DNA of 64,000 nt, from positions 1,984,001-2,048,000 of the forward strand of contig NC_027216.1 of the NCBI RefSeq assembly GCF_000981445.1, written 5' to 3'. The position numbers and the translations under genes are program-made. Origin of the DNA: Babesia bigemina (taxonomy: Eukaryota). A model generated the notes under the pieces. The model was not told the origin of the DNA and did no database searches. It was given only the letters and a program-made list of their open reading frames with translations. Position 1 is the stretch's first letter. Every line of letters begins with the position of its first letter. Positions 5,666 through 41,945 of the stretch are shown here, piece after piece.

Positions 5666-6147
5666 CTCGCTTAAGATTTCCGTGTATCCGCAGTTGTACA
5701 TGGCTGCAGCCTTACGCCGCTGTGTCGGTAGTGTTAAAAGTTAGTAATATATACTAACTGCCATGTGCCCACCACCTTACGTTGTCTACTGTGGGGATGC
5801 CCATTACATAGCATGTCACTTTGCACACAACATGCACTGTGCACTGTAGGGTAAACAAGCTCTTTTGAGGGGCCTTGTGAGGCTCTAAGCGTCTTGTGTG
5901 TAAACACATTGCACATCACGCTTTCCACGTCTCTGGTGTAACTTTGTGTGTCACACCTGCATTTGAGGTATTAAAATGGCGTTCTTTTCAAGCTTAAAAT
6001 TGATGATTATGAAGTATTTTGTTCTGTCATATATGAATGTGTTGTTGTTTTGGTTAGTCACACCAAAAACTAGCAAGTATTCCACGTGATGCATGTGCAG
6101 ATTGAACTCCACGCCGACATAGCTCTACAATCATAAGCCTCGTAACC

Positions 6148-9100
6148 ATGCCTAGTTCTATGTTAAGAACTGTTTTGCGGCTATCCGTATGGATTTTGCC
6201 GCTGTTGGTTTTCAACAACTGTAACACGGCGAATACGCATCTGCAGGACACCTCAGGTGAAAGGTTAGCCCACGCCACTTTCTACATGACGCTGTACAGT
6301 GATCGTCTAGAATGGATAGCATTTGGTTTGGCTGATAAACTTAAAAATTCTACCGGTCTAGAAGCATGTCTTGTGAATGTAGGTTTGTTGGTGAAGGTTA
6401 CGTGAGGATGACATTCACATGAAGCATCGTGCTGTGTTCGACACTATGTTTATCAAGATTCGTATGATGGGTGAAGTGCTAGTTTGTTGGCGTATTTATC
6501 AGCTCCTAGAGGTGCTGGATTGTGCGTGGTTACATCAAACTTGCCGTGTTATTCTCATCGATAATCTTCAAATCATTTTAGATGCCAAGATTCAGCAAAC
6601 TGCTGTCCTCTCAGCACATGATGGAGATAGACCCTACAGTTGTTCAAATATACGTCCTGTACTCAACCAGCAAGCAAAGCATGCCACCGCCTCGGAGCGG
6701 AGTACCTGGCGGCGTATACGCCTCAGTGATGGATTGGATCATCAATAATAGGCGGCGTGATGATTATGAGCGCGATGCTGCACCCGTTGCCGAGAAGAAG
6801 CAATCGCCTGAGAAGGTACTGAAGCAGGTTTGGACGCCGGTGTCCCACCTGAGTCACTTCGCTTTGCTATATCACGAAGACGACATCATAAAACGCAATT
6901 CTTCGGTGAAACGCAGGAAGTTTAAAACTGTTGCGTCGCTGGCGAAGTATGTAGATGCATTTAACAGCTACAAAAAGGCAACCGTTAGTCCACCCTTAGC
7001 CAATAAGTTGGACCACAAATTGAAAGCCGGCACAAGAACAGGGGAGCACGATAAAGGTAAAAAGCCTGTTGTCCCAATTCGCAATGTAACTGAAGGTGCA
7101 AAAGAAGTTATATCTACGCAACCAAAAGATGCGAAAGGCGCTGGAAGGAATCAAGGAACTGGAACGTCGAACGTTGAAGGTGCCAATCAATTAGATATAA
7201 AAGCATCGAAGGATAACAAGGTCACCGTGCCAAATATCACTCCTGCGCAATCACAGCAAAAGGCTCGTAAGAACGACGGAAATGGCCACGAAAAGGATTC
7301 TAACCCAGAAGCATCGATGGCTTCAGCATCAATACCTGCCGTTAAGGCTACACGCGCTACTCCAGAATCAAAGGTATCATCCACTAATGCTCAAAGTAAA
7401 CAACCTAAACATGGTGTTGTGGCTAAGGTTGCGCCAGTTAGGCAGTCTCCGCCGGCAACGGGCAGTAAAGTGAAATCGGGGACTGGTTATGCCCATGAAG
7501 GTAGCAAAACAGCAACATCAAACAAGCCGCATGGTAATACCATAGCTGCCGTGTCTAAAGATAATGTTGCTGGCACATTGAATAGCCGTCGCAATCCTGT
7601 TAAGGTCGAGCCTGGCTCTTCTGGAAAAAACGTACGCCTGCCCGCCAAACCCGCCAAGGCCACCCCCCCGTCAATACCACCCAAGCCCACTCCTAGGACC
7701 TCTGTGCGCTCACGTCCTGCGGCGTCAGGCTCCGCTGGAGTAAAACCGGATAAACCCGTACATGGCAGACAAAATCCGCAGAAGCCGGTTGAACATAAGG
7801 TCGTTGATAAACAAGATTCTCACAGTGAAGTACTTCCAGACCATGATGCCAGTGGTATCAAGGATGTGTCAGCTGTTACGTATGCAGGCAATGACACTTC
7901 ATCTGAAGCAGGTAGTGCCGCGGTTGGGAATGTGACTTCTGACACCCATCAAGACACCTCTCCATGGCAGCCGGTTGTGGAACTAAACCCGGTTATAGAT
8001 CCGTTCGAGCGTGATACATGGATGCGAAAGGCGATGGTACGTCGCCGCAAGTCTAAATCGGAGAGCAAAGAGGACGAGTCAAACGAAGGCGCCTCTGTGG
8101 TAGACGGAATTGACACTGTGGGCAATGCGGAAGCCCATTTGTGCGATGACATAGCACATACACCACCTGGCGAGGAATCGTCGAACTCGTCGTTTGCCAG
8201 ATGCGACAATCAGTCGATAGATGGCCACTCTACCTCGTGCGACGCTGAGACGGCATCACGTAGACTCTTGAGCGCACGCATGTATGATATGTTTGACGAA
8301 GATGTGGACGACGGATATGCGGTAGATACCTACTTGGAGTATGCTGATGTCTACATGGGCCCTTCGGGTGCGTATGTTGATGGTGAAGGTTCAAGCATTT
8401 ATGCAGACGATAGAGATATCACTACCACCCGTGTTGCATACAACACACAACTGGTGCGCAGAGAAAACAATGGCGACTCGCTTATACACACGGGTACCCA
8501 AGACAATGTTGATTCGCTCGCTCCTGGTGATAACAATCTTAGCACCGCTTCACCTCCACAAGCGACATCAGGTCTAAGGCCCTCATCGGTTTCAAGCCCT
8601 GTCAACTATGCTAGTGGATCAAACCATGATACAATTACAAGCAACAATGATTCATCGTCTGGCTTGATGCACGAGTCTCTGCAGGCCCCAGAGCTATCTA
8701 AAAATGACAGTTATTCGGATGACGTGGGACCGCCTCCATCTTGTGCGTTGTGTCTGTCAGATGTACGTTCGGCGTGCTGTGACGTCGAGTGTAACGACGC
8801 CGTGACTCGCATTTTGAACAGCGCTAGTTTAGGTTTGAGGAACCCTATGCGGCAGTTGTGTCGCTCCAGTTCATGTAAAGTTTTGGACGATTTTATATCA
8901 GAATATGACGTCGACGAATCATTCAGAACATATTCCTCCCGGCGATTCGAATCATGGGTCCCTAACATAAAGAATATATTGCGCGAGTTAGGTGGTATTG
9001 AACACTTCCGGGATGATGGTTACGTATACGATATAGACCGCGGGTTGGTGGCGGACATCGTGGACTGGCATGATATGGGACCTTATGGCACTTATTTCCC

Positions 9101-9869
9101 ACCAAACCTGGTACTTCAGACGAGTAGGGATTTCATAAGTGTTGAGTTTGAAGGAAGTGATGGCAACGTGAACGTTGCTCACCGCGAATTGGGAGGATGG
9201 TTTGAGCCTCAAGCCATGGTTGTGCTCCGCAGCCGAAATACTATTCATCGTGATGCAGGGTGGGCACTGTCAGCCGATCCTGAAGGGGAAGAAAATGTTG
9301 ATGTCGAAATTGTTCCTGAAGAAAGGCGCCGTGTGGATGCTTCGGTGGACCTGGAGGATGCCTACCTCGATGCCATATCCCCAACAACTCCAACGCCGAT
9401 GCGCTATCCATTGTGGTACTACGTGTACATGAAAACCGGTTTCAACAGCGGTGCGAGCATGCGTAGTTCCACCTATCAGAAGCTGCTTAATGCGTATGAG
9501 GCTTACGTGAAACGAACCAAACGTGATATCAGCGGTGATAATTCAGCCATCGAATCCAGGTCAAGCACCATTGCAGGTGAGCTGCTCCGTAATATGGCAG
9601 AGTCAAGCCACCTTCCGATCGCCGATTCACTAGATGCCATTTCAGTGTTGCAGCAAGCTTACGGAAACATGCTAACTTGTCTTGGAGGTTTACATTCGGG
9701 GCGCATAATACACGAGACAACACTTCATGTCAGCAGGCGCGACTATATTTTCAATGTTATCGTGGCTTGGTCATGTTTGGCCGCGCTGATTACGATTATC
9801 TCATTGGCCACCGTAGTATCCATCCAGCTAAAACAGAGAACCGCACGCTTCACTTCAACTGGAAAATGA
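6148..9869 (+). CDS. Large predicted type I membrane/secreted protein with a low-complexity Lys/Pro/Ser region
   Basis: Signal-peptide-like exon at 6148 (MLRTVLRLSVWILPLLVF), small exons, then the 1095-codon exon 6582-9869 preceded by ttttag. C-terminal TM: YIFNVIVAWSCLAALITIISLATVVSI. Confidence 0.7.
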
Positions 9870-10757
9870 GGCGGTGTATGCGTGTGCTGCAATCAGCTTA
9901 TTTGCTTCTAAGACGCAAGATAGAACAATGTCTAAATGTGACTGGACTACTGAGTACCATTCAAGTGTAGGCAATCTAGACATAAGTATTCGGCTAACAC
10001 TTACGCACTTTCAATCTCATAGCCCACAAGATCTTACCTTAAACTGTTTGTTTCTACATAACCGCTTGCACGTGTCATGGTGCGATGTGATGCGTCATGT
10101 TGTAGGCTTAATGTGTGAAATGGAGTGGTTAATGAAATCCCGCGAAAGAACGGGAGCATAACGCAACTCAACTACCTATTAATCTTAGGTTGGACTGATA
10201 TATGGTGCATTCTGTTAAAATACATGCCAAAGTCTTTATATAATGACCATATACTAAATGTTTAGTGTACTAGTTATTATATGTCAATGCAGGGCGTCCA
10301 TCACTCATCTACAGTTGCCCGTGCCATTCGGTGGGTTGTAACATGGCCGTACCGGGTTGGTGCCTCAGGAGAGTGTAGCTCATTAAATGATGCATGAGCG
10401 TCATTTTCCAAACGCCTTGCCATATTGATACCTAACACGATGCATTGCTGCGTTGTTACGTGAAGAACATCCAAGCCATTTGTCCAGTGATCTGTGGGGA
10501 CAAGTATGCAGTCTACACTTAACCCCAATGGTCGTCGTATCTCTGTACTGCATGACACTCGGCTGTTGCATCTTTGCCGCCAGATGGGTGTCTGTGGTGT
10601 GGCCCTGCCGGAGCGGTCGAGGGAAGGGTTGGCAGCTTCACCTGTCGGCACGTAGGATATATGTATCACTCTTGTGTGGTGTGATGGCTAGAGAACGGCT
10701 GAAGTTAAATGATGAGGTACATTATTCATGTTTCGTGCAGGTTGACGACAGAAGAAA

Positions 10758-11108
10758 ATGACGGATAAGTGCCAGTGCACCAACAGCGATTCCTGTTCTC
10801 GAACCAACTGCACGTGCTGTATTGTGTGCTGTCCTAAATGTAAAAGTAATGATGGTTGTACACAGTGCAGGCAGCAGCAAAGGGCGAAAAAGGAATGTCC
10901 GCGTTCGAAGTGTCCGACATGTAAAAATATCTTGTTTTGTGGTTGTTCTTATTGTTTGAAAAAAAATGCTTTGATTTTTCTTCCCATATTCATCATCGTA
11001 GTAATTGTTTGTTCATGTTACCATTTCGGTCTGCTGGACATAACGTACCAAAAGCTGTCCGACATTCTCCCAACATCTCGACTGAGCTCCTACAGTGGAC
11101 TCTCATAG
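10758..11108 (+). CDS. Small Cys-rich single-TM protein (tail type SSYSGLS)
   Basis: About 17 Cys in the first 69 aa, TM LIFLPIFIIVVIVCSCY, tail nearly identical to that of 32911-33276. Confidence 0.8.
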   Translation: MTDKCQCTNSDSCSRTNCTCCIVCCPKCKSNDGCTQCRQQQRAKKECPRSKCPTCKNILFCGCSYCLKKNALIFLPIFIIVVIVCSCYHFGLLDITYQKLSDILPTSRLSSYSGLS

Positions 11109-12230
11109 GCTTACATAGCACACGTAGCCATGTCCCATTAGTTCATACAACATAAGCGGTGCTTACATTCAATCTTATGATTTAGATTTGAACGCGTTAA
11201 TGTATTTAATCTGCTGCACTCCTCAACCTGCTCCACATCAAATCGCATCTACATACTCCCTCATCACATCGCATAGCCGCTCAGTCACTACGCGCCGCCG
11301 CACGTGTCGGCAAACTTGCCAAGCTCACCTACCTGCAGCCTTGATAGACCACCTCACCACCGCTCACCTAACTCACTACCTAGCAACCAACCGCCTAACC
11401 TAACATTCACCCAGATATATCACCTAATGCCTACTCAGCAATATGGCAGTTACTGTAGTTCATGTATTGATAGGTTGGCTGTTTGGATTTCGAGTTCTGA
11501 TACCCGTTAAACGTGCCCACGTCCTCCCATGGTTCTAGTGGGCAGAGATGTTAGGTGATACGCCACCAATGTAGGGTTCTGAGGCGTACTCTGATAAGTG
11601 GCGTTCTGAACACTACTTAGATTCGTTGCTGACATGTTAGCTGCCTTGCGTCGCGTAGCGATGGATCCCATTGGGACTGACGTGATGGCCAGTGGACTGC
11701 GTGGTTATGTGAAATTGATTGTATGGGTTTATATACGAAACATATTAAGCGAGAAGTGTGGTATACATCAGCAATCATTAATACAGATATGTGATTACAT
11801 TCATAAGCGGTGGTGGCAACGTTGCACGGTATGTAAGAGGTGGAGTTGATCGAGCAACTGGTACCGGTTGACCTGCATGCCACGGACAGAACACCAGCCA
11901 CATGCGTTAACTAAGCACAACTTCAATTGTGACAGCATCATAGTGGTGATGTGACTGACCCTGCTTTAGACGGCGGTCACCTTGCTGCTAACGTAGCGCC
12001 GGTGGGAGACTATCAGTGTCCTTGCTGCGGTGCGTGTTCATGAGAGGTTGGTGAGTGAGTTGCATAGGTGCGTGGCTCATCTGTTGGTTGGTGGGTGCGT
12101 TGCTTGAGTGATTGATACGTTTGCAGGTTGAGGGAACTGGGAACGGCAGTGGTACGTGTTGCACTTGGTGAGTGCTGCTTGAGTGCTTGATATGCTTGCA
12201 GGCTGAGGGGACTGGGAGCGGTGAAGGAAG

Positions 12231-12809
12231 ATGGGAAGGGACATGTGGACGTGTATATGTGATACTGGATGTCGAAGGTCTGTAGTATGTAATTGCTGTG
12301 CGTGGTGTTGTCAAAAATGTACAAGTAGCGATGGTTGCTTTGGATGTATGGCACATTACCTGGTGCGCAAAGATGGCCGGAAACCATACAATTGCAACAC
12401 TTCGGTATGTCAGAGACAATGTGCAGGCAACGAGTACAAATGTAAATGCAAATGTTGTCTTCAGAAATGTAGTAGTAAAGAGAAGCCTGGCATCTGCATT
12501 CCCCCTCCCCCCGCTCCCCCGCCTCCCCTTTCTTCCACCGGTTCAGAGTCTTCCTCCGCTTCCTCCAGTGTCATCCCAGCCCCCGGTGTTGCCGGCGCTC
12601 GGTCCGGTGGTCCCGGTCCTGACGGTGAAGATATGTCTACCACGTCCCCCACTTTCTCCCCTTCCCCCGAAACCATCGCCGCCGTCATCGTTGCCATCAT
12701 CGTCGCCATCATCCTGCTCGACCTGTGCATCTTCCGCTTTCCGGTGGGCCGCAACATCCGCGATTTTCTCGTACGCAAGATACCCTTCTGCATCGCGTTC
12801 TACAGCTAA
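12231..12809 (+). CDS. Cys-rich, Pro/Ser-linker, single-TM protein (tail type IAFYS)
   Basis: CxC/CC/CxxC-rich N-terminus, poly-Pro linker, TM IAAVIVAIIVAIILLDLCIF. TM and tail are identical in protein to 34431-34955. Confidence 0.85.
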   Translation: MGRDMWTCICDTGCRRSVVCNCCAWCCQKCTSSDGCFGCMAHYLVRKDGRKPYNCNTSVCQRQCAGNEYKCKCKCCLQKCSSKEKPGICIPPPPAPPPPLSSTGSESSSASSSVIPAPGVAGARSGGPGPDGEDMSTTSPTFSPSPETIAAVIVAIIVAIILLDLCIFRFPVGRNIRDFLVRKIPFCIAFYS

Positions 12810-12868
12810 ACTCCGCAATTTGTTGGCGCTAACATCGTAATCCAAATCCCACTGATCACCTGACTGGC

Positions 12869-12938
12869 AACTGACATCTAATGTGCTAGACTACGTAAGC
12901 ATTGCGTTGATGAGTAATAACATGAGCAGTGAGTGACC
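12869..12938 (+). repeat. ~70-nt splice-cassette repeat, copy 1 of 4 (others 13075-13145 +, 15015-15085 -, 35015-35085 +)
   Basis: AACTGA(C/G)ATCTAATGT..(T/C)AG + 5 nt + 35-nt GTAA...GAGCAG + TGAG(G)TG in all four copies. Confidence 0.85.
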
Positions 12939-13055
12939 TCCAACCCCGCCCCTTACATCATCGCCGCCGTCGCCCTCATCATCGTCGTCATCTGCGTCAT
13001 GGTCTACTTCCGCATCCGGCCGTTCCACAGGGTGCGGTATCTACTGCGCAGCTGA
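12939..13055 (+). pseudogene. Orphan TM+tail module (no ATG start, no Cys domain)
   Basis: Translates SNPAPYIIAAVALIIVVICVMVYFRIRPFHRVRYLLRS*, homologous to the C-terminus of 15105-15581. Confidence 0.75.
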
Positions 13056-13147
13056 TGACAATAACTTAATTGGAAACTGACATCTAATGTGCTAGACAGA
13101 GTAATGATTGCGGTGATGACCAATCAGAGGAGCAGTGAGGTGACCAT

Positions 13148-13820
13148 ATACCCCCTCCCACCACCATCAGGGCCATGCTCTTCTGGCTGGTCGGTTTCAA
13201 TACGTACGGACTTATTGCTAAGATAGAGGGACACATCGAAGGCCTGTTGATGGAAATTAACTTTGATGGCAACCACCCTATGTATGCCCTCCAGGTCAAC
13301 GGGGATCTATCCTCCCTGCCCGCATCTCATCGCCGACACCCTTACTGAGACATCTCTCTACGCGGCAAGCGTTATCTACAAATTGCGGCATATTAATTCT
13401 AAAGATGCCTTCTCCAATTTCAACTTCAAATATGAATACCGTAAGCTTCATTACTCCCCCGACCCCGCCGGGCTCCTCTGCCAGCTGCGTGACTACACCT
13501 ACGCCTGCCACCACCAGTTGGCGTTCCTCAAGTCGCAGTGTAATCGGGACAAACTAAGCGGTGGGTGGAAGCATCATCACTATGGCAGTGACATCACTGC
13601 TTCCAATTCCCCCCTCCAGGCGTTCCTGACAGACGGCTGGGATTCCGACTTCGAGACGCACCTCTTCGACCCTTGCAACCTGTGCCTCAAGAGCAGGACC
13701 AGAATGGGATTTACGAGAGGGGATTTGCCTAGAATATCGCAACAGGGCAGTGTCATTTCATCAATCCTCACTCCAAGCTGCGGCGGTGAAAATGATTATT
13801 CGCTACGCGCCAAAAAATAG
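13148..13820 (+). pseudogene. Frameshifted VESA1-like C-terminal fragment
   Basis: PPTTIRAMLFWLVG... shifts frame near 13327 into IADTLTE...LLCQLRDYTYACHHQL...SPLQAFLTD...HLFDPCN...LTPSCGGE. It is homologous to the end of 35536-40308. Confidence 0.8.
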
Positions 13821-14075
13821 TAATTATCGCTATAAGCGGTAATATAATACCCTATGCTACAGTGTTGATTAAATGTATTAGCACATGGTCCTACGTGTCA
13901 TGGTGTACAGGAAAATTACGAAGCAGCAATAATCGCATCGCAAGACCACTGGTTTTAAAACAGGCTTTATGTAAGTACATGTTAAACAAATGTGTCAGCT
14001 ATTGGAAGTCATCACATTGATATCAGAGGTTACCTGGCTACAAGAAGGCTACGTGGACTGGGTGAGGATATGAAA

Positions 14076-14246
14076 TTAGTGGAGTGACGGCTTGGAATCA
14101 CGGAACCCGTCCCGTATTTGGCCGAATATGGTACCAAGGCTCACATCATATTGTCTACCCATGATGTAAAGGACCAATACGGGGAGGGCGATTAGTAGAA
14201 TGGCGCAAACCACGCCGACGTAAAGCTCTGGTTTTTCCCAAGTCAT
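14076..14246 (-). CDS. 56-aa single-TM microprotein lacking the Cys-rich domain (tail KPSLH)
   Basis: GAAG-ATG after the family 5' intron motif. MTWEKPELYVGVVCAILLIALPVLVLYIMGRQYDVSLGTIFGQIRDGFRDSKPSLH*. A same-length paralog lies at 40575-40745. Confidence 0.7.
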   Translation of the reverse strand: MTWEKPELYVGVVCAILLIALPVLVLYIMGRQYDVSLGTIFGQIRDGFRDSKPSLH

Positions 14247-14875
14247 CTTCGCCAAGGCGCACTTGACAATAAACCCTACACAGCAATGAACAACGTACCT
14301 CAATACTTTACCACTTTCAGCAACCGACGATACACAATGCCCATACCATGCCATCCACCTAGTGCTTGGGCAACTGTAAATCGAGACCTCACAACGCTGA
14401 CATACCATGACAATACCCTCTCGCATGCATCAATCAGACATTCAGATTGTGATGTAACGACGCTGCAACTGACAATGTAGTATCCACGAGAAGCGCCAGG
14501 CCTGCCGAACATCTGCTTTGTTTTACCATGGTTACTCTGATATCTGACCAGCTGACCCAAATTGCGTGCTTGATGTTTCTCATCGCCACAAGGCTGCCAC
14601 TGATCAAACCAGTATACAGCACATCTCACTCACATGCCACCTGGTCACCTAACAGATGTCCCATCACGTCACGTGGTGCATTACTCATCGGGTGACGGCA
14701 CGTATTACCACCAAATCAGTTCCACTGTTCTCTTGAGATGAGGTGACCAACCCTAACAAATCAATTAGCACAACGCCATCTCAGCGAATGCCCCTTACCT
14801 GATAACTTGCTGCTTAGGTGAAACTATACTAGCGTAGAGGGGTACGCGGTGCGTGAGGCGCAGGTTTGGCATTCG

Positions 14876-15004
14876 TTATAGAACAGACCCTCTTGCAAGC
14901 ACCAGCCTCTGTGTGTCTTTAAGACGCATAAGCCACAATACGTCAAGCAATATGAAAATCATGACGAGGAAGATGAGGACGACAGCGGCGGTGGCGGAGT
15001 AGGG
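14876..15004 (-). pseudogene. Orphan TM+tail module downstream of the splice cassette
   Basis: Translates PYSATAAVVLIFLVMIFILLDVLWLMRLKDTQRLVLARGSVL*, similar to the AAVIVAIIVAIILLDL TM. Confidence 0.55.
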
Positions 15005-15104
15005 AGGGGGATGTAACCACCTCACTGCTCATGTGATTGGTCATCAACGCAATCTTTACTCTGTCTGGAACATTAGATGTCAGTTGCCAGTTGGGTTATA
15101 GTAA

Positions 15105-15581
15105 TCAGCCGCGCAATAGGTACCGCACCCGGTGGAACGGCCGGACGCGGAAGTAGCTCATGACACAGATGACCAGGACGATGAGGGCGACGGGGGCGAT
15201 GATGACGGGAATGATGACAGAAGGGTAGGCGGTGGAAAGATCATCACCCTTGGAATCGGGGTTACTAGATCGAGCGGCGACGCTGGGGAGAGGTCGTGCC
15301 TTGCTGGAATGGAGACTGCAGTCAGCAGAGAGCGTCTCTGGATTTTTGCCTCTACAACATGGACATTTACATTGACATTTGGGGTTGGTACACTGCTTAC
15401 ATTGGTCTTCACATATCGAAGGATCGCAAGTGTAATCTGACCCGACACCGGTGCGCTCGATGTTGTACGCCATACATGTACTGCACTTTCTACCACTACA
15501 TCTGTCACAACACCAGGGACAACATCTACAGTCCCCCCAAAAGTGACAACTAGCATCACAATAACACTGAAGTCCACTCAT
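15105..15581 (-). CDS. Cys-rich single-TM protein (tail type YLLRG)
   Basis: CYC...CRCCPWCCDRC...CSTCMAY...CQCKCPCC pattern shared with the 12231 and 34431 members; TM VIIPVIIAPVALIVLVICVMSYF. Confidence 0.85.
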   Translation of the reverse strand: MSGLQCYCDASCHFWGDCRCCPWCCDRCSGRKCSTCMAYNIERTGVGSDYTCDPSICEDQCKQCTNPKCQCKCPCCRGKNPETLSADCSLHSSKARPLPSVAARSSNPDSKGDDLSTAYPSVIIPVIIAPVALIVLVICVMSYFRVRPFHRVRYLLRG

Positions 15582-16269
15582 CTTCCCCTCTCTCCCTTCC
15601 CATCAACCTGTACAAGCATGAACCGCGTACCTCAGCCTCGAACACCGGCGGTCTCCTATCGGTTTCACCACCAACAGGGTGACCACCATCTAAAGCACCG
15701 CCAGTCACATGGCAACAATGCATATATCGCAACATCACCTTGTTTTAGTCAAAGCATCTTGATGGTATCCTATTAGTGGCATGCAGGTCAATCTGCACCA
15801 GTTGCGCAGTCACTTCCGTCCATCACAGACCGTACAACTGTGCCACCACTTCTAAATGTCATCGCATTTGTGTTCTACTAACTGACTGAATGAAGATAGG
15901 CTTGTTTTATAGCATTAGTAATTACCACCATGTTGGCCACAAACACCACTGAACTGCTCCACCCACTGTCCATCACGTCGGATTGTCCAACATCAGTACC
16001 ATCTCGCCCGACAGTACGTAAGACTTCGTAACGGCGCAAATATAATAACCGTCTTACACAATTAACTTACCTAACAGGTAGCACACTAGCTCACATGGCA
16101 CAGCATTCGTCAGAGGCCGACCTGGATAGCAGGCCGCCAAGCTTCGCAATGGACCAGCACCTTGTTAGCTTCCTGTGATTCATACACACGTGAATCCGGA
16201 ACATTTCCTTATCCTATTATGTATGATGAATATGAGTTCTCAACGTACTTCTTTGTTTGGCATCTAAGT

Positions 16270-22357: not shown

Positions 22358-24230
22358 TCAACCTCGACTGGAATGTGAACTGCTTCGCCGCTGATCGTCT
22401 CGAGCCCTACTAGAGCTCCTACTCCTGCTGTAGCTGCTGGAATCGGCGCTGCGGCGTCGATGCCTTGATGCACTTCTGCTGCGACTTCGACGCCTTGCGC
22501 TCTGTCTTGAACGGTCATAACCTCTGCGTACAGAGAAGGGGCGTCGTGACGGCGACCCCGATCGAGGAGGCGACCTTGATCGCTCACGACGACGCGCAGG
22601 TTCCCAACTGTCTTCAGACTTGTATTTCACCTGTATCTTGCGATAGTTCAAATACATGCCATCACGCTCCAGGGCACGGGCTGCACCTTTCTTGTCCCTG
22701 AACTTGATGAATGCGATTCCACGACGTGCAAGGGTCTCATCCGACGCAGGGTCATCGCTTGAACCACGGTTCTGAGGTAATTGAATCGATTCCACGTCAC
22801 CGCATGACGAAAAGAAGTCGTACAGATCCGCACGTTTGGTCTTGTAACTCACATTCAGCACAACCACCTGAAATGTATAGAAGGTACGATGTCACTAATT
22901 ACCTCGTCATGGCCCTTCAGAAATGTCTCAAGCTCGTTACTGACCCGCTTTGCGTGAAGGTCGGCCTTATGCTGAAGCTCACGGCGCTTGCTCGCAATCT
23001 CGGCCATCTTTCGCGAAACCAGGTCGCGGTCAATCGATATACGGTATACGCGTTTTGATGCCCCAAGAGTGAATCGGTCGCCATTCCTCATAGCAAACGG
23101 CTCATGAGGCTCCAACCGCTGGCCGTTCACGGTCACACCGGTGACGTCGTTGTAGTTCACCATACAAACATGACCACGCTTGTTCATGTATATGGAAGCG
23201 TGGACACGGCTAATGGAAGGGTTGGCGGGTTTTAGATCGCACGATGGGATGCGCCCTATGTCATACAAGCATTTGCCCTCGAGGCGGTGTTTGCAAATGC
23301 CGGAATCACCGTGTGATTCTTCAACTGTTACCCAAAAATCTTCAGCACTCATGTTTTGGCACATTAGTAGCCACACTGCATAATGTTGTGAAATATAATG
23401 ACGATCAGTTGCATGAGTTGACAGCTCACCTAACGGCCACGCGTAACACCACAATTATCTTAATTAAATAGCATCACAGGCCATTGAAAAGGGAATTTCA
23501 TATTGTATTAGTTGCATAAATTCGCCAAAGCCTACCTCGGTGGTCCTTGTAGGCAGACATATCTTCCCGTATTTGCTCCGTGATGCGCCCGACCTTGTTT
23601 TGGCCACTCTTCCCGTCAAATCCCAGAAACAGATCAGTGGATGTGAAAACGATCTGCCTATCTCCAGTCTTGCCAAGACGAGTGCGTATATCTGAAAATG
23701 TTAGAGTGAGGCGGTATAGAGATTACCTCCGTTCCTCCGGTACTTGTCGCGAAGCAGTAATTCTAGCCATTCGTGGCGATGCGCACTCCACAAAGGGTTC
23801 TGATACGCGATTAGCGAAGGTTGTATAGGTCAATGGTTGCGCAGCGCGACTACATAATCAGAGGTGGCATCAAAACGTTAGCCAAATAACAAACAGTAAT
23901 CTAACCTCATCACTGCCTTCTGAGGTTGCAGATACGTCCATAGACGACACATGGTTAGCGACATGAGCTGGCAAATGGTCAGATCCATCGTAGTGGTATT
24001 CTTGACCGTCTATATTATGCGATAAGCGTAGGAAACGCAAGCCATGGGCGACAGAATGAAATGCGATGCCCTTAAACACAACTCGACACTTGTACGCTGG
24101 ATTTAAGAAGTCAAATTCGCCTTCAAAATTATCGATGCGCATCAAAATGGCCTTCAGGGCCGCGGAATCTGCGCGACAATAAGATGCGGAGGAGAATGAA
24201 GTCAAACCTACCTAGGCCTTCGACTTCCAT
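22358..24230 (-). CDS. Probable NADAR(YbiA)-like + FHA + RRM + RS-domain protein (spliced; could be two genes, with FHA-RRM starting at 23352)
   Basis: NADAR-like IDNFEGEFDFL...SVAH, WLELLLRDKY...LGKTGDRQIV...DLFLG..GQNKVGRITEQIR. FHA IGRIPSCD...SISRVHA...GVTVNG. RRM VLNVSY...RGIAFIKF, then an RS tail. Intron 23376-23535 joins the two halves in frame. Confidence 0.7.
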
Positions 24231-26293: not shown

Positions 26294-27900
26294 AGCTCAA
26301 GCCCTCGCACGGAGTTGGTGTCGATTCCGGGTTGCACGCTGTCCAGTGGTCAAAAAACGTATCCGGTTACATCTATACATTCAACCAATAGAAAAGTGGT
26401 AATAATACCTTTGCAGTCCATTCTAACAGCATCATTTGGGTATGTACCTCGTATATGCTCTTCGGACAAAATGTCCCCCCCTATAATGTCCTTCACGAAG
26501 TCTCTACGCTTTATCCTCTCGCATCTTCATCTCAACCAAATGGTCTACGTTGGTAATGCCGATTTGCACGCTTGTGTTGCTGTTTTAGTGCCAGTTTCCT
26601 GTATTGCACCTGCTGTGTTGTACATGGTGATTAAACGAATATAACTCTCATGTATGAGGCGACGCATCTACATCCTATTTTGTGCCTTCATGAGCACTGT
26701 TGCCAACACCAATCATAAAATGTGGTGTTTACCATTGCATCCGTCAGCCTCGATGAATGTTCCGGTTGTAGCCTTGAATACAAATTCCTTTGCAACCTAG
26801 ACGTCTGCTCGGGCAGCATGATTTTAGAGTAGAGTGAGGTAATTGTAATTGCCAGTCGAAGAACATATTCTTGTATTGTGGTAGCTTTTTGTAACAAGTG
26901 TGAACGGCCATGGACCCTGCGAAGACTGTGCTGTGGAATTACTTGTCACAACCACTTAGTTGGGCGTTATCTACCGCAGGCATGAGGAAGATGCGACGTG
27001 GAGATTCGCACCGCTGCTCGCATTTTGGAACCTCGGCGATGACTTTAACACACGACAAAGAGCAATACGTGGTACCTTGAACGGGACTTCACTGACGCCC
27101 CCAATTTGGATGAGCAACCACTGCGGCGGTGCCTGAGCACGTTGGTTGACCGCTGGGAGTGGGTGGCTAGACCGTGTGGATTTCACCCTATATGGGCGAA
27201 TATCGGTAAACCGTTGCCTATGTATGAGTTATTTTCAGTGTGGTGACATTTATTGTCAGCATCGTGATAAGCCTCGAAGTCGTAACCACAAACTGCACCC
27301 CAACTATGACCTAGTGAGGCCCCGCAAACATGGTCAGCTATTTATTTGTAAACCCGAAATGTTGCACCTCTCGTGCAAACAGGGGCAGTCTGAGTGGAGA
27401 ATTCGCATTCTTACATTTTTCCTAACAGGTGCGTGTCATGTGAGTCCACTTATGCTGATAAAATAACGCCCCAATACATCCGGTAGCTGTCGATATTAAC
27501 GATAAATCAGAGCTGCATGCTGATGGATTGCGCTTACAAGATGAGACGATGAAGGCAGTCTAAATGTGCATTTCTGTTTGAAGAGTACATTTTGAGCTCA
27601 ACAGACTTCCAGCAGCCACCATCACGTATCCCACCTAACTGGCAACTAGCAGCTAACGTGATAAGAAAGTTCATTGCCGAATTAACATTGCATGCCAATC
27701 TTGGCCGCCCTAGTAGTGGGCGTGGGAGAGGTGTTCTCTCATACGCCAGGTGCCCAAGCGTCCGGAGTGTGTTACGTGGCACGTCTGAGGACGTCAATCT
27801 GGGTGATGCTGGGACTTTGTCTGACGTAACTACGGGACGGCGTGGTCACGGGGTATTTTATTCGACATTGCGGTGATTTCTAAATGCATAATGCCACACT
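26290..27900 (-). CDS. Possible multi-exon hypothetical gene (unresolved)
   Basis: Minus-strand exon-like pieces (e.g. RCERIKRRDFVKDIIGGDILSEEHIR followed by a gtac donor). Boundaries are approximate. Confidence 0.3.
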
Positions 27901-28696
27901 GTGTCGCAGCTGGTGACTTGGTAGTGGGATGGTGGTGGCCTGAAGTGGCGCAGTTACGTTTGTTGAAATGCAAGTTAACATACATGAAGACATTGATGTG
28001 ATAGAACAGTCACCGGCAATTCCGGAATCCCGAAATCGACTACCGTGACTAAATTCTGAATTACATCAAATTGTTTGATACGCCGTGTCGAAGTTACATG
28101 GTATGAGACAAAACATCTTCAATGCAAAGGGGGCGTTAAGTAAGCAACCGGCGCGTTCGTCCAAAACGGAAGTATCATAGGTATATACATACACACGAAA
28201 TAGCCCACGCACAGACAGTAATCTAGAAGATGATTGCTCCCTGGATTGCGCAGCATGCGCTGATAACAGCCGCAAACATTGATGTCTTGCGAGGAAGGCG
28301 AATTTTTGTCGCAAGGCGCTCTAGTTATACGCCGAGAGACACTAGAAACTATTATGGTGTCAACTAAGAGCAACATCAATTATGATAATCACGGAAGACA
28401 AGTGAGTGTGAGCTCGCATTTCTCATTGTGACGGTGTGTTGATAACCGGCAGGCCACGTCAATGGTACGGACCTGGTTGCGGCGATGCAGCTAGTTTGTC
28501 ATCCCGCCATTATAACTTACCTACTTATTGTATAGATGGGACTTACATATGCCTAGAAGGTGCGTGTGTGCTAGAAGCAAACACTGCTGTTGTGCAAACC
28601 CCCCATCAAGACACCGCTGTTTGCACACCGGCTGATAAATACATACACATCCACACGCGCGTAACAATTTTTTGTAGTTTAACAATTATTTTCAAG

Positions 28697-29458
28697 ATGG
28701 TGTACAACTCGTTGACTGATGCTCCTCGCAACCTCAAGGAGGCCATTGATTGGTTGATAGCCGTGAAGGGAGATGATTCTCAAACTATCATGCAGACTTT
28801 AGGTGAGACACTATACCGAATTCTCTCAGACAAGAATGTTGGTTTGTTGTTTATACCGGAGATCGAGAAGGTGAAACGTCTTTCTAAAGAGTTCATGGAG
28901 CAACAAGAACTTAAGGGTCGGTGGTTCATAAAAGAGCTGCTGGAGAGGTTCAAAAGGCCTATGAATAAAACCGTCGGTCTTGAATTAAAGCGTCTCTGGG
29001 TGCGCTTCCCAAGTGATTACGAGAACATCATAAAATCCAGGGATGTAACACCTAAAGACTTGGCAGACGGCGTAGAAGAAATTGTGCATGATTGTGACAC
29101 ATTTCTGAAACTCATTAAAAACCGAGAGTTGTATAACTCGGCTTACAGTTCAGAAGCTACGTGGGAGGCTTCATGCTCTAAAAACCCGGAAGCTTGTGCG
29201 TTGGTTCTAGTGGGTATTGCGCCAATGATATGGGCCGGCATACAAACCTTGTGGGATGCGACCCAAGCTGCAATTGAAGAAAAGTCGAAACCTGGTGCGG
29301 AGGAGCGTTTTGGAAGTGTTTTGAAAGCACTGGGTTACAAAGAGCCAGAATGCCGTGCTGGCATGAGTGGTTCAGATGTCCGCCAGGCTTTGCGCGTTAT
29401 GGATAAAGATATGTTGGTGACACTCTACGACATCTCTGGTTTTTGGGCATTCTATTGA
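28697..29458 (+). CDS. Short VESA-related protein (ves2-like, no TM), 253 aa
   Basis: Starts MVYNSLTDAPRNLKEAIDWL (VESA1 N-terminal SLT..P.NLKEAIDW motif), contains Y.SAYSSEATW..SC...PE.CA, and ends GFWAFY*. Confidence 0.85.
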   Translation: MVYNSLTDAPRNLKEAIDWLIAVKGDDSQTIMQTLGETLYRILSDKNVGLLFIPEIEKVKRLSKEFMEQQELKGRWFIKELLERFKRPMNKTVGLELKRLWVRFPSDYENIIKSRDVTPKDLADGVEEIVHDCDTFLKLIKNRELYNSAYSSEATWEASCSKNPEACALVLVGIAPMIWAGIQTLWDATQAAIEEKSKPGAEERFGSVLKALGYKEPECRAGMSGSDVRQALRVMDKDMLVTLYDISGFWAFY

Positions 29459-30990: not shown

Positions 30991-32910
30991 TTTATCATAT
31001 GATCACCTGCTAAACAACCCAGCACGGCAATGAACAACGTACCTTATACCTCGAACATCCTCAGCCAACTGACGGTACACAATGACCATACCTCCACCCT
31101 TACCACGCCATCCACCATGTGCTGGGGCAACCATGAATCCGGATATCCCAACGCTGCCATGACACGGATATCCAATCCCACCGCATGTGGCGAAGCGCAT
31201 GTCAACAATCAAGTGGCACGTCCATCCCAGTAGCCCAGAGTCTCCCCATCCAAGCGTATAAGCAGAGACTTATCAATTGGCAACATACTTTCAAAGGTTG
31301 TCAATGCCTACTGCTAGCGCTAATGCGCGGTGTTACGTCAAATCAACCTCCACTCCCTTTCGTAACACTTAAGAATTCATGCTCGCCTTAAATAATTCAC
31401 GGTACGAGATTTCAACCTGAAAACGCCGTTATCCGCATAACTACACGTTGCATACCAGCTCTGCTTCAATTCATCCAGCTGCTTCCATCCCCTCCAGACA
31501 GGGGCGCCTTGTCATCGGTGAGAGGCATGTTACTTCTCCCCAGCTTACCCAGCTCCACCCTCCCTCCTCCGGAAAGAGGCATGACCTACGTCGTTGCATC
31601 CAGTATAACTTTGATGCTCTGTTCTGCCCTGAGTCCGGGCACCTCCAGTCCCACCTTGCAGGCTGCTAGTACGCCTGTTACCAAATCCATAGCTTGTCCT
31701 ATCCCCATAGCGCTGCGGGTGGTTTTCGCATCCATGACGGTATGACGCCTAGCAACACGCTATTGGCGTACGTCGGATATGCCCTGTTCAGGTCTTAACG
31801 TCCACAGAATACGGCGCGAAAAAGCCGTTGAGGGTATCATCAAAGTACCATTTCCACCATGTCTCTGGCTGCGACAATGGAGGTGGTATAACAGCGGCTA
31901 AGCACAGAGTGGACCTTCACCCTCTTCGATATGGTTAGACAAGAACACGTCCTATTTAAGCTTAGTGACACTTCTGTAGTTGAGCTTCCCAATAACAGAA
32001 TTGATAGGTGCTTGGGACCCTCCAAAGTGCGGAACATAAAGGTTACCAAACAATTGGGTGAGTTTATCAAACGTGGCGTAAATTCACCGGTGAAGGCATA
32101 GTGTATTTAAACTATAGATGATATGGTCTGTAATGCTTGTTACAGTCGAAAAACTGTGGCAATGGTCTGGCGCAGTCCACCCACCACCCAGCCGAAACCG
32201 TCACATCACTAGGCAACTTATATGCCAGGCATAAAAATAAGTTAGAATTGCATTACAATTTTATACTATGAGCCACAGAAATGTTCATTAGAAATGCGCT
32301 CATTGATCACGGAGGGCCTTTCTAAGGCGGTGGGTGGCAGGGTGGATTGTTAACGTGGTGAGTGATCAACTATGTAGACAGGTGACAGCCGGGTTGATAG
32401 GTGAATGAGTTGCCTATGTACTGCGCCTAACAAACTGTGTCAGCTAACCATCTTATCATTGCATAGGCGACGGGTTGGGTACTGATAGTGGAGATGGTGG
32501 GTGATGACGGGGCAAGCCGATGGGGTGGCTACTGGGTGCCACGGTAACGGGGAATTTGTCGTAAGCGTGGTGGTTAGTAGTGATGTCGCTTGATACCCCG
32601 TGGTGTACAGAGGCAGTTCTTAACGCACAAACATCATGGTACTTGGAGGCCGTGACAGAGTGGCGTTGTCTGATGGACGGCATTGTAACTGCGCAACTGG
32701 TGCTGGTTGACCTGCATGCCACAGGTGGATACAATTCACATGCGCCAACTCGGTAATATTTTGGTGGCGTTATCTGCATCTTAGCGATGTAACAAGCGGT
32801 GCACTGGATGGCGGTGACCCGGTTGGTTGGCGCCCAGATGGGAGACGGCAGTGTACTTGGCTGAAATACGTAGTTCATGGTTGCACGTTGAGGGGAGTAC
32901 CACGGGGAAG

Positions 32911-33276
32911 ATGACGGAAGAGACGTGTGAGTGTCACAAGGAAAGTGGTGGGAAGTGTGCTGAATCAAGTTGTAAGTGCTGCGCCGGTTGTTGCCCGGAG
33001 TGTTCGGCCTGTCCGAAATGTGTTGAAAGTAAAACAACCCTCAAAAATGGCATTAGAACATGCGATACATCGTCTTGTAGGAAATGCAGTAAAGGTTTGT
33101 GGAAGTGTACTTGCCTATGTTGTTTGAAGCAAAAAACTTGGATTTTCATCTCCGTATTCATCCTTCTCATCATCGTAGTTTCATGTTACCACTTCGGTAT
33201 CCTGAACATAACATACCAAAAGCTGTCCAACATCCTCCCAACATCTCGACGGAGCTCCTACAGGGGATTCTCATAG
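32911..33276 (+). CDS. Cys-rich single-TM protein (tail type SSYRGFS)
   Basis: GAAG-ATG start MTEETCEC; CKCCAGCCPEC...CTCLCC; TM and tail homologous to 10758-11108. Confidence 0.85.
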   Translation: MTEETCECHKESGGKCAESSCKCCAGCCPECSACPKCVESKTTLKNGIRTCDTSSCRKCSKGLWKCTCLCCLKQKTWIFISVFILLIIVVSCYHFGILNITYQKLSNILPTSRRSSYRGFS

Positions 33277-34430
33277 GTTCACATAGCACACGTAGCCATC
33301 TCACATTAGTTCATACAACACAATCGGTGCTTACGTTCAGTCTCATGATTTAGTTCTGAACGAGCTAGTGTATTTAATCTGCTGCCCTCCTCGACCTGCT
33401 CCACATCAAATCGCATCTACATACTCCCTCATCGCATCGCCGCTCCATCGCTGCTCGCCGCTGCACGTGTCAACAAGCTTAACAGGGTGTTCTATCTGCA
33501 AGGGTGATTGTTGTTGCCATGAATTGTAATGGAAGTTACAATTGTGTGTTACCGTCGCTGCGATTATATCGTTTTGCTGCCATCATGTGTTTCCACCGCT
33601 GCTTCATCTGTTGTTGTCATCACTGCCACCGTAGCTCACCTAGTCACCTAACTGGCAACCCATCACCTAATGTCATGCATCACTCATCAGTTAACATACA
33701 TGGTTATTGGTTGTTAGATTAAATGATTATGTGGCACCTGACCAATAGGATGACGTAACATATAAACCTTAATTTGGTCGATGCGTTGTCACGTCGCTCG
33801 CCCGGTACTTTGAGTTGTGAGTCACCTGTGAGACATGCCTAGGCCATCCTACTGACCCAGTGCTGTGAAGTCGGGTGATTGGCCACTAACGTAGGCAGCT
33901 GATAAGTGCTAAGCTACATGAGTTATTATGTAGTTGCCGTGTTACTAGTTACCACGACCGCAATGTGAGTCGCTGGGCAATGGATGGATCCCGGACTCTG
34001 ATGTGATGGCCAATGGACAGCAAAGTTAGGTGACATTGATGGCATCGGTATAGATAAGAAACCTGTTAATGGAGTACTACATCTCTTTTAGGCACTCATT
34101 ATGACACAAACGTGATGACATTCAGAAGCGGCTGCGCCAACTTTGTACTGTCCGTGATGGTTGGAGTTGATTGCTCCACTGGCACTGGTTGTCCTGCATG
34201 CCACAACCAGGATGGTATCAACATGCTTTAGCTTAGTTGTACTTCAGTTGTGATAGCTGCATAGATGTGATGTGAGTGGCGGTGCACAAGATGGTCATCA
34301 TTTTGCTGCTACCGTGGCGCCGATGGTAGATGGCCAGTGTCGTAGCTAAGGTGCGTGTTCATGAGTGGTTGGTTAGTGCGTTGCTTGAGTGATTGATATG
34401 TTTGCAGGTTGAGGGGACTGGGAGGGGAAG

Positions 34431-34955
34431 ATGTACCAGTGTACGTGTGGTACCGGATGTAAAGCGTCTCATTGGTGTAACTGTTGTTCCTGGTGCTGTG
34501 AAACATGTAATAGTAGCAGCCAATGCTATGGATGTATGGCTTATTACCTAACACGCCATTCAGGCAAGAATCTTTCCGATTGCGCTACTTTCGGTTGTAT
34601 AACGAAATGTAAAGGCAAGGAGTTGAAATGTGGATGTAAGTGTTGTAAAGAGAAATGTAGAGAGCCTGACGCCTGCAAGCCCATTCCTCCTCCCCCTCCA
34701 CCGCCTCCCCCTGCTCTACCCGATGCTCAGCATCTTAGGGCCACCGAAGAGCAATCGTCCGATCTCCAAGATCACACCGAAGATAGCAATCTTCCACCTT
34801 CCCCCCCGTCCCCCCAAGCCATCGCCGCCGTCATCGTTGCCATCATCGTCGCCATCATCCTGCTCGACCTGTGCATCTTCCGCTTCCCGGTGGGCCGCAA
34901 CATCCGCGATTTCCTCGTCCGCAAGATACCCTTCTGCATCGCGTTCTACAGCTGA
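34431..34955 (+). CDS. Cys-rich, poly-Pro, single-TM protein (tail type IAFYS)
   Basis: Paralog of 12231-12809, with only synonymous differences across the TM and tail. Confidence 0.85.
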   Translation: MYQCTCGTGCKASHWCNCCSWCCETCNSSSQCYGCMAYYLTRHSGKNLSDCATFGCITKCKGKELKCGCKCCKEKCREPDACKPIPPPPPPPPPALPDAQHLRATEEQSSDLQDHTEDSNLPPSPPSPQAIAAVIVAIIVAIILLDLCIFRFPVGRNIRDFLVRKIPFCIAFYS

Positions 34956-35535
34956 TCTCAGCAATTTGGTAGAGATAACATTGTAACCCAAATCCCACTG
35001 ATCACCCAACTGCCAACTGAGATCTAATGTTGTAGGCAACGTAATGATTGCGTTGATGACAAATCACATGAGCAGTGAGGTGACCTAGCACCTGGACTGA
35101 GTGATGACCTAGCACGTGAGCTATGTGCTCAACAAACACTCAACCAAAAGTCTGCAAAAATATTTCATTTCTACTGCAAAACATCATGTATAACACCATC
35201 CTCCTACCACTCTCCACCCTCACTCCGCCATGGCTGCCTTGCCTTGTCGCCTTCCCTCCTCAGGTGAGTGGTGTGTCTATAGGATTCGTGTGACGGTTCA
35301 TGAATTTTGCAATATGGTTTAGGTGTGCCATTGTATTAGTATGCTGTGTATTGTAGTTACTATGCGCCTCACTTGCTAGCCTTTCCACTCAGCACACTTA
35401 GTTGTCTGCCATGCTGTATTAAGCGGCGTCACCTTAGAGGTGTGATCACTCTAGTGTTTCCCAGTTGACATGGTACTGGAGGCTGGCTGTGGAGGTTTGT
35501 AACAGTGGATCAGTGGGTAATTGGAAGGGGACAGG

Positions 35536-41654: not shown

Positions 41655-41945
41655 TTAATTGAGATTCTTGCTCCCGAGGCCAGAGTATGACGAAGTGTAC
41701 CCGGTCCACTCGTAGACTGCTTTGGGAATAAGGTAAGCCGATGACTTTGTCTTATAGAGGTATATCGCAAAGCCGAGCAACACTGCGAAGACTATAAATG
41801 CGATAACCCAGCAGAGTATTGACGTAATTGCTCCATTCTTGTGCTTGGTACAACATGGACATGTACACGACCATTTTGCGCACTGTTTACAGTTCTTCGT
41901 GCTACATTGAGCACAGTTTGTGCATTCTTTGCATGTTTCTGACAT
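41655..41945 (-). CDS. Short Cys-rich single-TM protein
   Basis: MSETCKECTNCAQC...CKQCAKWSCTCPCC, TM, tail with SSYSGL. Confidence 0.8.
   Translation of the reverse strand: MSETCKECTNCAQCSTKNCKQCAKWSCTCPCCTKHKNGAITSILCWVIAFIVFAVLLGFAIYLYKTKSSAYLIPKAVYEWTGYTSSYSGLGSKNLN

What the first reader, a model, noticed from the sequence alone, without database searches (positions are those of the whole stretch)
12744..13145. Repeated 3' splice cassette with a 5-nt microexon that could swap the C-terminal tail
Seen in four copies, each just after a TM-tail stop codon: branch-like CTGA(C/G)ATCTAAT, an AG, exactly 5 nt, an exactly 35-nt GTAA...GAGCAG segment, then TGAG(G)TG. The 5-nt pieces are ACTAC 12890-94, ACAGA 13096-100, ACAGA 15060-64 (minus) and GCAAC 35036-40. 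The 35-nt segments are 12895-929, 13101-135, 15025-59 and 35041-75. Phase-0 donor candidates sit just after the TM: CCG|GTGGGC at 12744 and 34890 (both giving 146-nt introns) and RGG/CGG|GTGCGG at 13032 and 15128 (both 64 nt). Splicing gives a common tail in one frame: FP-TTE*, FP-ATEVT*, HR-TDEVT..., HR-TDEVV.... The unspliced IAFYS tail nevertheless shows only synonymous change. Inference: two isoforms per gene through intron retention versus microexon splicing.
Basis: partly seen in the sequence, partly recalled or inferred. Interest (0 to 1): 0.8.

Follow-up and report, generated by a model that had tools for sequence, protein, structure and literature searches.

The report
Splice-linked tandem membrane anchors in Babesia
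In a family of small cysteine-rich membrane-protein genes of the cattle parasite Babesia bigemina, a repeated element that looks like splice signals sits behind each membrane anchor; the long unspliced tail is likely the main product, and optional splicing is predicted to give a two-residue stub or a link to a second anchor, but no RNA evidence was available.

Summary
All coordinates check out: four copies, found nowhere else in the window. The host genes are an unnamed B. bigemina family (22-Cys domain, stalk, one TM, tail). The unspliced tails are coding and selected: 38 of 38 type-A gene models keep the 21-residue tail, and 5 of 6 tail changes in the window are synonymous.

The first intron looks real (G|GTGNG donor on rare codons, conserved branch block plus YAG). 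The microexon is doubtful. The 35-nt segment has ordinary intron length but weak donors, and 2 of 7 further copies appear to have lost its GT or AG. The invariant GTAA is also G plus a TAA stop, so removing only intron 1 gives two residues and a stop in 4 of 4 copies.

That frame instead runs into a second, complete TM-plus-tail module in six annotated loci; the two such modules in this window are out of frame. Best reading: an optional retained intron in tandem TM modules. A passenger 3' flank is the main rival. No transcript data could be examined.

The parts
12231..12809 (+). Gene A: 192-aa ORF, 22 Cys, Pro/Ser stalk, type-A TM, 21-residue tail ending IAFYS
   Evidence: nearest models are B. 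bigemina hypothetical proteins
12091..12126 (+). Predicted 36-nt 5' UTR intron of gene A (repeat unit D7)
   Evidence: joined flanking exons have stops in the ATG frame
12168..12201 (+). Second predicted 5' UTR intron of gene A, 34 nt
12744..12889 (+). Candidate optional intron 1, copy 1 (146 nt): phase-0 donor after FRFP, branch-like block 12868-12884, YAG acceptor; contains the coding tail and stop
   Evidence: splicing not observed
12890..12898 (+). Copy 1: 5-nt piece plus G = two codons, then TAA (12896-12898)
12895..12929 (+). Copy 1: 35-nt intron-like segment (only copy with +5G)
12936..13055 (+). Orphan type-B TM plus VRYLLRS tail with no Cys domain; 29 of last 30 residues match the best full model; not in the EVT frame
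13032..13095 (+). Candidate optional intron 1, copy 2 (64 nt)
13096..13135 (+). Copy 2: 5-nt piece, TAA at 13102-13104, 35-nt segment 13101-13135
13155..14190 (+). Fragment similar to the 3' end of the large ORF at 35521-40308 (71% over 735 nt); ves1a-like by inference; joined directly behind copy 2, not in the EVT frame
   Evidence: label inferred from table S2 of PMC5660447, no Pfam match
15105..15581 (-). Gene B: 158-aa ORF, 22 Cys, type-B TM, VRYLLRG tail
15065..15128 (-). Candidate optional intron 1, copy 3 (64 nt)
15025..15064 (-). Copy 3: 5-nt piece 15060-15064, TAA at 15056-15058, 35-nt segment 15025-15059
14876..15007 (-). Orphan third-type TM module behind copy 3; not in the EVT frame; resembles the second TM of model P0054
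34372..34407 (+). Predicted 36-nt 5' UTR intron of gene C
34431..34955 (+). Gene C: 174-aa ORF, 22 Cys, type-A TM, IAFYS tail
34890..35035 (+). Candidate optional intron 1, copy 4 (146 nt)
35036..35075 (+). Copy 4: 5-nt piece, TAA at 35042-35044, 35-nt segment 35041-35075; followed by EVT and a stop, no TM module

Best explanation
The element is likely the far end of a real but optional intron that begins just after the membrane helix of a small cysteine-rich surface-type protein, and the unspliced long tail is likely the main product. Shown: TM-tail-stop-element units lie in tandem behind the gene, in several orders. Inferred: with the intron retained the protein ends in its selected cytosolic tail (21 or 7 residues). 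With only intron 1 removed, two codons and the TAA inside GTAA end it as a stub. If the weak 35-nt intron is removed as well, the frame continues as E-V-T into the next TM module, which in intact loci would give a two-TM form; in this window both such links are out of frame, so no second-TM protein would be made here.
For: Tail is coding: 38 of 38 FRFP sites among 57 retrieved proteins carry the 21-residue tail, 31 identical; 16 of 22 type-B sites continue V-R unspliced. 5 of 6 tail changes in the window are synonymous (P about 0.009), and divergence rises at the stop, not at the donor (3/66 vs 14/80, Fisher p 0.019). Donor: all 4 TM-proximal sites have -1G and +5G, as do 9 of 9 reference donors (6 from Dim1 and RPC34, 3 predicted family 5' introns), against 5.6% of all GTs. 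The Val codon there is GTG in 4 of 4 but in 0 of 18 other Val codons of the same TM/tail stretches. By eye, tails of P0051 and P0053 place the type-A and type-B donors four codons apart, both at phase 0. Acceptor: branch-like block 15 of 17 columns invariant, YAG with a T/C swap, like CTAAC/TTAAC before the AG of two longer introns in conserved genes of the window. Stub: two residues then TAA in 4 of 4 copies, while the other two frames vary. Second TM in the EVT frame in six models (P0029, P0034, P0036, P0049, P0054, P0057), with linkers differing by whole codons. Housekeeping introns here are 33-38 nt in 5 of 6 cases.
Against: No transcript was seen. The gene models are ab initio (PMC4066756 section 8), and they can only read through the element in the EVT frame, so the six in-frame cases are a biased sample; the unbiased window sample is 0 of 2 in frame. 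All donors of the element score 2-4 of 6 against 4-6 for the reference donors. The copies are one or two independent origins: a stop within three codons of a YAG happens 12% of the time, and G-ending codons also cluster next to the type-B donor. None of 57 proteins ends in the stub or in a TDEVT-like tail. 0 of 17 family locus tags are in a published RNA-seq table of 3,721 genes (another isolate, so divergent paralogues may not map). Most intron retention in P. falciparum is reported to have no function (PMC10449492 abstract).
Confidence: 0.45

Rival explanations
1. The element is a passenger: ordinary 3' flank (or a decayed intron pair) copied along with TM-tail modules that are duplicated in tandem and swapped between genes by recombination. 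It is rarely or never spliced, and tail choice happens at the DNA level.
For: Splice columns no more conserved than background (P about 0.12); weak donors; apparent GT or AG loss in 2 of 7 further copies; 0 of 4 window copies give a conserved spliced protein beyond two residues; copy 2 is fused to an unrelated fragment; the four type-B Cys domains scatter among type-A ones in a tree of 18 of 48 rows, though holding them together is not rejected (p-AU 0.093); the front of the element recurs without the rest at 27632 and 33644.
Against: Does not explain rare G-ending codons exactly at the donors, the conserved branch block plus YAG, or TM modules repeatedly starting in the EVT frame.
Confidence: 0.3
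2. Both introns are real but lie wholly in the 3' UTR: a donor after the stop (12837, 34983; 53 nt to the AG) and the 35-nt intron leave the protein untouched, mirroring the short UTR introns at the 5' end of the same genes.
For: GTAAYC at the same place in both type-A copies; 34-36-nt introns upstream of the ATG; junctions would lie 27-45 nt after the stop.
Against: These donors score only 2 of 6 and lack -1G and +5G; type-B copies have no usable GT after the stop.
Confidence: 0.1
3. One reading: both introns are removed and a 5-nt microexon gives every gene a common short T-D-E-V-T tail as a second functional isoform.
For: Phase arithmetic works in 4 of 4 copies, and the 35-nt length is typical of introns here.
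Against: Products are 3, 31, 28 and 5 residues with no common end; the 5-nt piece is the least conserved part (1 of 5 columns); models P0029, P0034 and P0036 imply a 3-nt piece if their acceptor is the same AG, and P0047 a 34-nt segment.
Confidence: 0.08
4. The element is the start of a separate tiny gene: ATGs inside the 35-nt segment open a 55-65-residue TM-plus-tail protein downstream of the main gene.
For: The ATGs are in the EVT frame, one is present in all 4 window copies, and model P0049 is called this way.
Against: Changes in that frame are almost all non-synonymous; 0 of 4 window copies reach a TM from these ATGs; no room for a promoter between the upstream stop and the ATG.
Confidence: 0.07

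Closest known systems
Toxoplasma myosin B/C (C-terminal change by intron retention) and Plasmodium MAEBL (alternative 3' splicing gives soluble or membrane-bound forms), as summarised in PMC6381282 (passages)
   Same: One locus, alternative C-termini decided by a 3' intron, with a likely change in location or anchoring.
   Different: Those are single-copy genes with shown isoforms; here a multigene family of 50 or more models, tandem TM modules, a two-residue stub, and no transcript evidence.
Babesia VESA1 / ves1 (PMC4066756, PMC6630957, PMC2034396; passages and sections)
   Same: No signal peptide, variable N-terminal part, one C-terminal TM, short conserved tail, short 5' introns, location among ves-like loci.
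   Different: 160-200 aa instead of about 100 kDa; Cys-rich domain, which B. bigemina VESA is reported to lack; no sequence match to the large ves1a-like ORF in the TM/tail searches.
BbigVes2 (PMC4066756 section 22)
   Same: Short multicopy genes near ves1 in B. bigemina.
   Different: Ves2 is homologous to the ves1b 5' end, has a signal peptide and no TM; this family has a TM and starts straight with the Cys-rich domain.
Schistosome micro-exon genes, MEGs (recalled; only a search listing seen)
   Same: Parasite surface or secreted families with very short exons.
   Different: MEGs use runs of symmetric in-frame microexons; here there is at most one asymmetric 5-nt piece after the TM.

Membership tests
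Spliceosomal intron (intron 1, 64/146 nt) | GT donor with -1G and +5G, branch motif, YAG acceptor | tested here: met
   4 of 4 copies; donors score 3 of 6, below the reference donors
Spliceosomal intron (intron 1, 64/146 nt) | Removed from transcripts | not testable with these tools
   No reads could be laid on the locus
Spliceosomal intron (35-nt segment) | Typical length and GT-AG ends | tested here: met
   35 nt in 4 of 4; housekeeping introns 33-38 nt in 5 of 6
Spliceosomal intron (35-nt segment) | Donor context like local introns and ends kept across paralogues | tested here: not met
   -1G 0 of 4, +5G 1 of 4; GT or AG apparently lost in 2 of 7 further copies, inferred from protein
Coding microexon | Conserved length and encoded residues, conserved downstream product | tested here: not met
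   1 of 5 columns invariant; products differ in all four copies
Alternative C-terminus by intron retention (MyoB/C type) | Retained form encodes a selected tail | tested here: met
Alternative C-terminus by intron retention (MyoB/C type) | Both isoforms detected as RNA or protein | not testable with these tools
   No transcript or peptide data for these loci were reached
VESA1 (ves1a/ves1b) | Homology to the conserved VESA C-terminal domain | tested here: inconclusive
   No Pfam hit; TM/tail queries do not match the ves-like ORFs of the window; no VESA-named protein among hits; no direct profile comparison was run
VESA1 (ves1a/ves1b) | Large (about 100 kDa) ectodomain | tested here: not met
   158-192 aa
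BbigVes2 | Lacks a C-terminal TM | tested here: not met
   TM helix predicted at residues 148-170
Structured non-coding RNA | Rfam match or shared secondary structure | tested here: not met
   No Rfam hit over copies 1-3 at E up to 5; folding z 0.35, 0.97, -0.37, -3.43, and 1 of 15 consensus pairs with a two-sided change

The most novel reading that the evidence does not exclude
An undescribed B. bigemina-specific family of cysteine-rich surface proteins stores its membrane anchors as tandem modules joined by an intron / 5-nt exon / 35-nt intron linker, so one gene can make a one-TM protein with a long tail, a one-TM stub, or a two-TM hairpin whose final tail faces the other side of the membrane: a splice-set topology switch in a variant-antigen-like family.
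Probability: 0.2. Interest if true: 0.75.

Novelty: new variant of a known kind. Interest (0 to 1): 0.42.

Why it matters
B. bigemina's species-specific surface families are mostly unannotated, and its reference gene models were made without RNA support. If splicing here is real, dozens of gene models have wrong or incomplete 3' ends, and a parasite membrane-protein family controls its tail, and perhaps its topology, by intron retention, which has only been shown for a few single-copy apicomplexan genes. Even if the element is a passenger, the family itself (50 or more models, no Pfam, fold or cross-species match found) and its interchangeable TM-tail modules appear undescribed. The question is cheaply testable on existing RNA-seq.

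Tried and rejected
No whole genome is held for this window, so other DNA copies could not be read; seven extra copies are known only through read-through protein models. Sequencing runs: no RNA holder was listed for 6001-16000; this is no evidence either way, and no reads could be laid. Metagenome contigs: no relative by protein and no match to a pattern of the element. Pfam: no family above cut-off for any family protein. AlphaFold model of gene A is weak (mean pLDDT 62.9, pTM 0.32); Foldseek against PDB found nothing at E up to 0.001; ESM Atlas hits were all under 0.9. Rfam and folding gave no RNA element. My first idea that the post-stop GTAAYC is the better donor was weakened by scoring. 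My five-intron hand model of RPC34 had stops, so only its first two introns, which keep 179 codons open, were used as references. A second GT five bases after the type-B donor puts the third-type TM in frame in copy 3 but gives a stop in copy 2; treated as chance. The tree used 18 of 48 rows, dropping 30 that lack a full Cys domain in one frame. P0056 (E 9.7e-4) lacks the family motifs and was set aside. Earlier findings of the scan: nothing by place or sequence, eight unrelated entries by words. Literature searches that found no description of the family or element: Babesia + microexon, 0 papers; B. bigemina + ves1 + intron; BBBOND + transcriptome; cysteine-rich + gene family + transmembrane; microexon + apicomplexan. 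One supplementary index file of PMC4066756 was not searchable, figures were not seen, and subscription papers are not in the library.

Full report
Context. The window is from a Babesia: it carries AMA-1, and the family proteins match only Babesia bigemina hypothetical proteins. The finding lies in three paralogous genes (A 12231-12809, B 15581-15105 minus, C 34431-34955) that encode 158-192-aa proteins with 22 cysteines, a Pro/Ser stalk, one TM and a short tail. There is no N-terminal hydrophobic leader by inspection. Net charge is -3.2 before and +4 after the TM (35 type-A models), so the tail likely faces the cytosol (positive-inside rule, recalled). A full-library profile search gave 37 hits, 36 of them family members already seen or named B. 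bigemina and one weak unrelated protein. No other Babesia species appeared, but representatives at 50% identity can hide such members. Pfam, Foldseek and ESM Atlas gave no usable match.

Observation. All coordinates are right and there are exactly four full copies. They are paralogues, 56 of 79 columns invariant, so keeping six splice columns has P about 0.12. Conservation is uneven: branch-like block 15 of 17, three bases before the AG 0 of 3 (always ending in a pyrimidine), 5-nt piece 1 of 5, 35-nt segment 27 of 35.

The unspliced tail is the selected product. Among 57 retrieved proteins, 38 of 38 type-A TMs carry the 21-residue tail (31 identical; two of these models are the window's own loci) and 16 of 22 type-B TMs continue V-R. 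In the window, 5 of 6 tail substitutions are synonymous, including TAA/TGA (P about 0.009), and divergence rises at the stop rather than at the donor (3/66 vs 14/80, p 0.019). Gene conversion could homogenise TM and tail, but would not be expected to stop at the stop codon or favour silent changes.

Intron 1 looks real. I took six reference introns from conserved genes in the window (Dim1, four introns giving 126 open codons, two of them confirmed as gaps against a solved homologue; RPC34, first two) and three predicted 5' introns of the family. Five of the six housekeeping introns are 33-38 nt; all nine donors have -1G and +5G. The four TM-proximal donors have both features, found in 5.6% of GTs, and they sit on synonymous sites that break a strong C-ending bias: Val is GTG in 4 of 4 against 0 of 18 other Val codons. 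Hybrid tails in P0051 and P0053 suggest by eye that the type-A and type-B donors are four codons apart yet both phase 0. Ab initio gene finders chose the type-B donor in 6 of 22 models and the type-A donor in 0 of 38; these models had no RNA support (PMC4066756 section 8). Against: the donors score 3 of 6, below every reference, and only one or two independent origins are involved.

The microexon is doubtful. The 35-nt donors lack -1G in 4 of 4 and +5G in 3 of 4. Seven more copies can be glimpsed through read-through models. P0036 has Leu where others have Val, implying loss of the GT; P0057 has Gly where others have Ser, implying loss of the last AG; P0047 implies 34 nt; P0029, P0034 and P0036 imply a 3-nt piece if the same acceptor is used. 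A simpler reading fits all window copies: 5 nt plus G are two codons and TAA is a stop, so removing only intron 1 ends the protein two residues after the donor in 4 of 4 copies. This has a 12% chance background for a single origin, so it is parsimonious rather than proven.

What the EVT frame really is. Double splicing gives tails of 3, 31, 28 and 5 residues, not a common tail. Behind the element the genome often has another TM module without a Cys domain: type B behind copy 1, a third type behind copy 3, a ves-like fragment behind copy 2, nothing behind copy 4. In six gene models the EVT frame runs straight into a complete second TM and tail, with linkers differing by whole codons. In this window both second TMs are out of that frame.

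Mechanism. Shown: anatomy, tandem modules, selection on the long tail, uniform stub frame. Inferred: optional splicing of intron 1, a cytosolic tail, a two-TM form in intact loci. I give this 0.45. Expression is unknown: 0 of 17 family tags are among 3,721 genes in one RNA-seq table from another isolate, and 0 of 5 in one proteomics table.

Comparison. It would work like Toxoplasma myosin B/C or Plasmodium MAEBL (PMC6381282, passages). It shares VESA1's overall layout but not its size, and it is not ves2 (PMC4066756: abstract, passages, sections 8 and 22 part 1, supplement searches; PMC6630957 and PMC2034396: passages). Two family accessions, inferred from numbering, are absent from the cluster table of PMC5660447 (passages and supplement searches). 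PMC10449492 (abstract only) cautions that most retention in P. falciparum has no function. PMC3467087 (passages) gives a mean B. bovis intron of 60 nt; PMC9531838 (passages) notes that Babesia UTRs are unannotated. Searches that found no description of the family or element are.

Verdict. Real feature, partly right interpretation, untested at the RNA level; new variant of a known kind; interest 0.42.

Noticed in passing
window 12085-12230, 34366-34436: Tandem 75-nt units of a 34-36-nt intron plus a short exon upstream of the conserved GGAAGATG start; 24 of 48 gene models translate such units as variable RGLGAAVVEGTG-like repeats, but joined exons have in-frame stops, so they are probably 5' UTR intron arrays and many models have wrong N-termini.
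   Followed up: partly
window 10746-11108, 32818-33276, 41655-41969 (minus): A second small Cys-rich single-TM family with a different tail; two members sit directly upstream of genes A and C as part of a duplicated block; none carries the element.
   Followed up: no
window 27632-27664, 33637-33688, 14640-14690: A CACCTAACTGGCAAC-like intergenic motif resembling the front of the element recurs without the rest; possible regulatory motif.
   Followed up: no
window 11650-12070, 33980-34390, 15600-16000 (minus): About 400 nt of upstream sequence is conserved among all three family genes with no shared open frame seen; candidate promoter or 5' UTR.
   Followed up: no
window 35521-40308: 1595-aa ORF, ves1a-like by inference, starting about 460 nt behind copy 4; its 3' part is duplicated as a fragment at 13155-14190.
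   Followed up: partly
window 28412-29458 and 44118-45311 (minus): Two related ORFs beginning MVYNSLTDAPRNLKEAIDW, ves2-like (one label inferred from a published table); the second ends in 48-nt repeats and a basic tail.
   Followed up: no
window 35001-35086: Copy 4 alone folds better than shuffles (z -3.4); the other three copies do not.
   Followed up: partly
window 22855-23454 and 22358-22891 (minus): An FHA-like frame and an RRM plus RS-rich frame abut and are probably one spliced gene (domain names by inspection, not tested).
   Followed up: no
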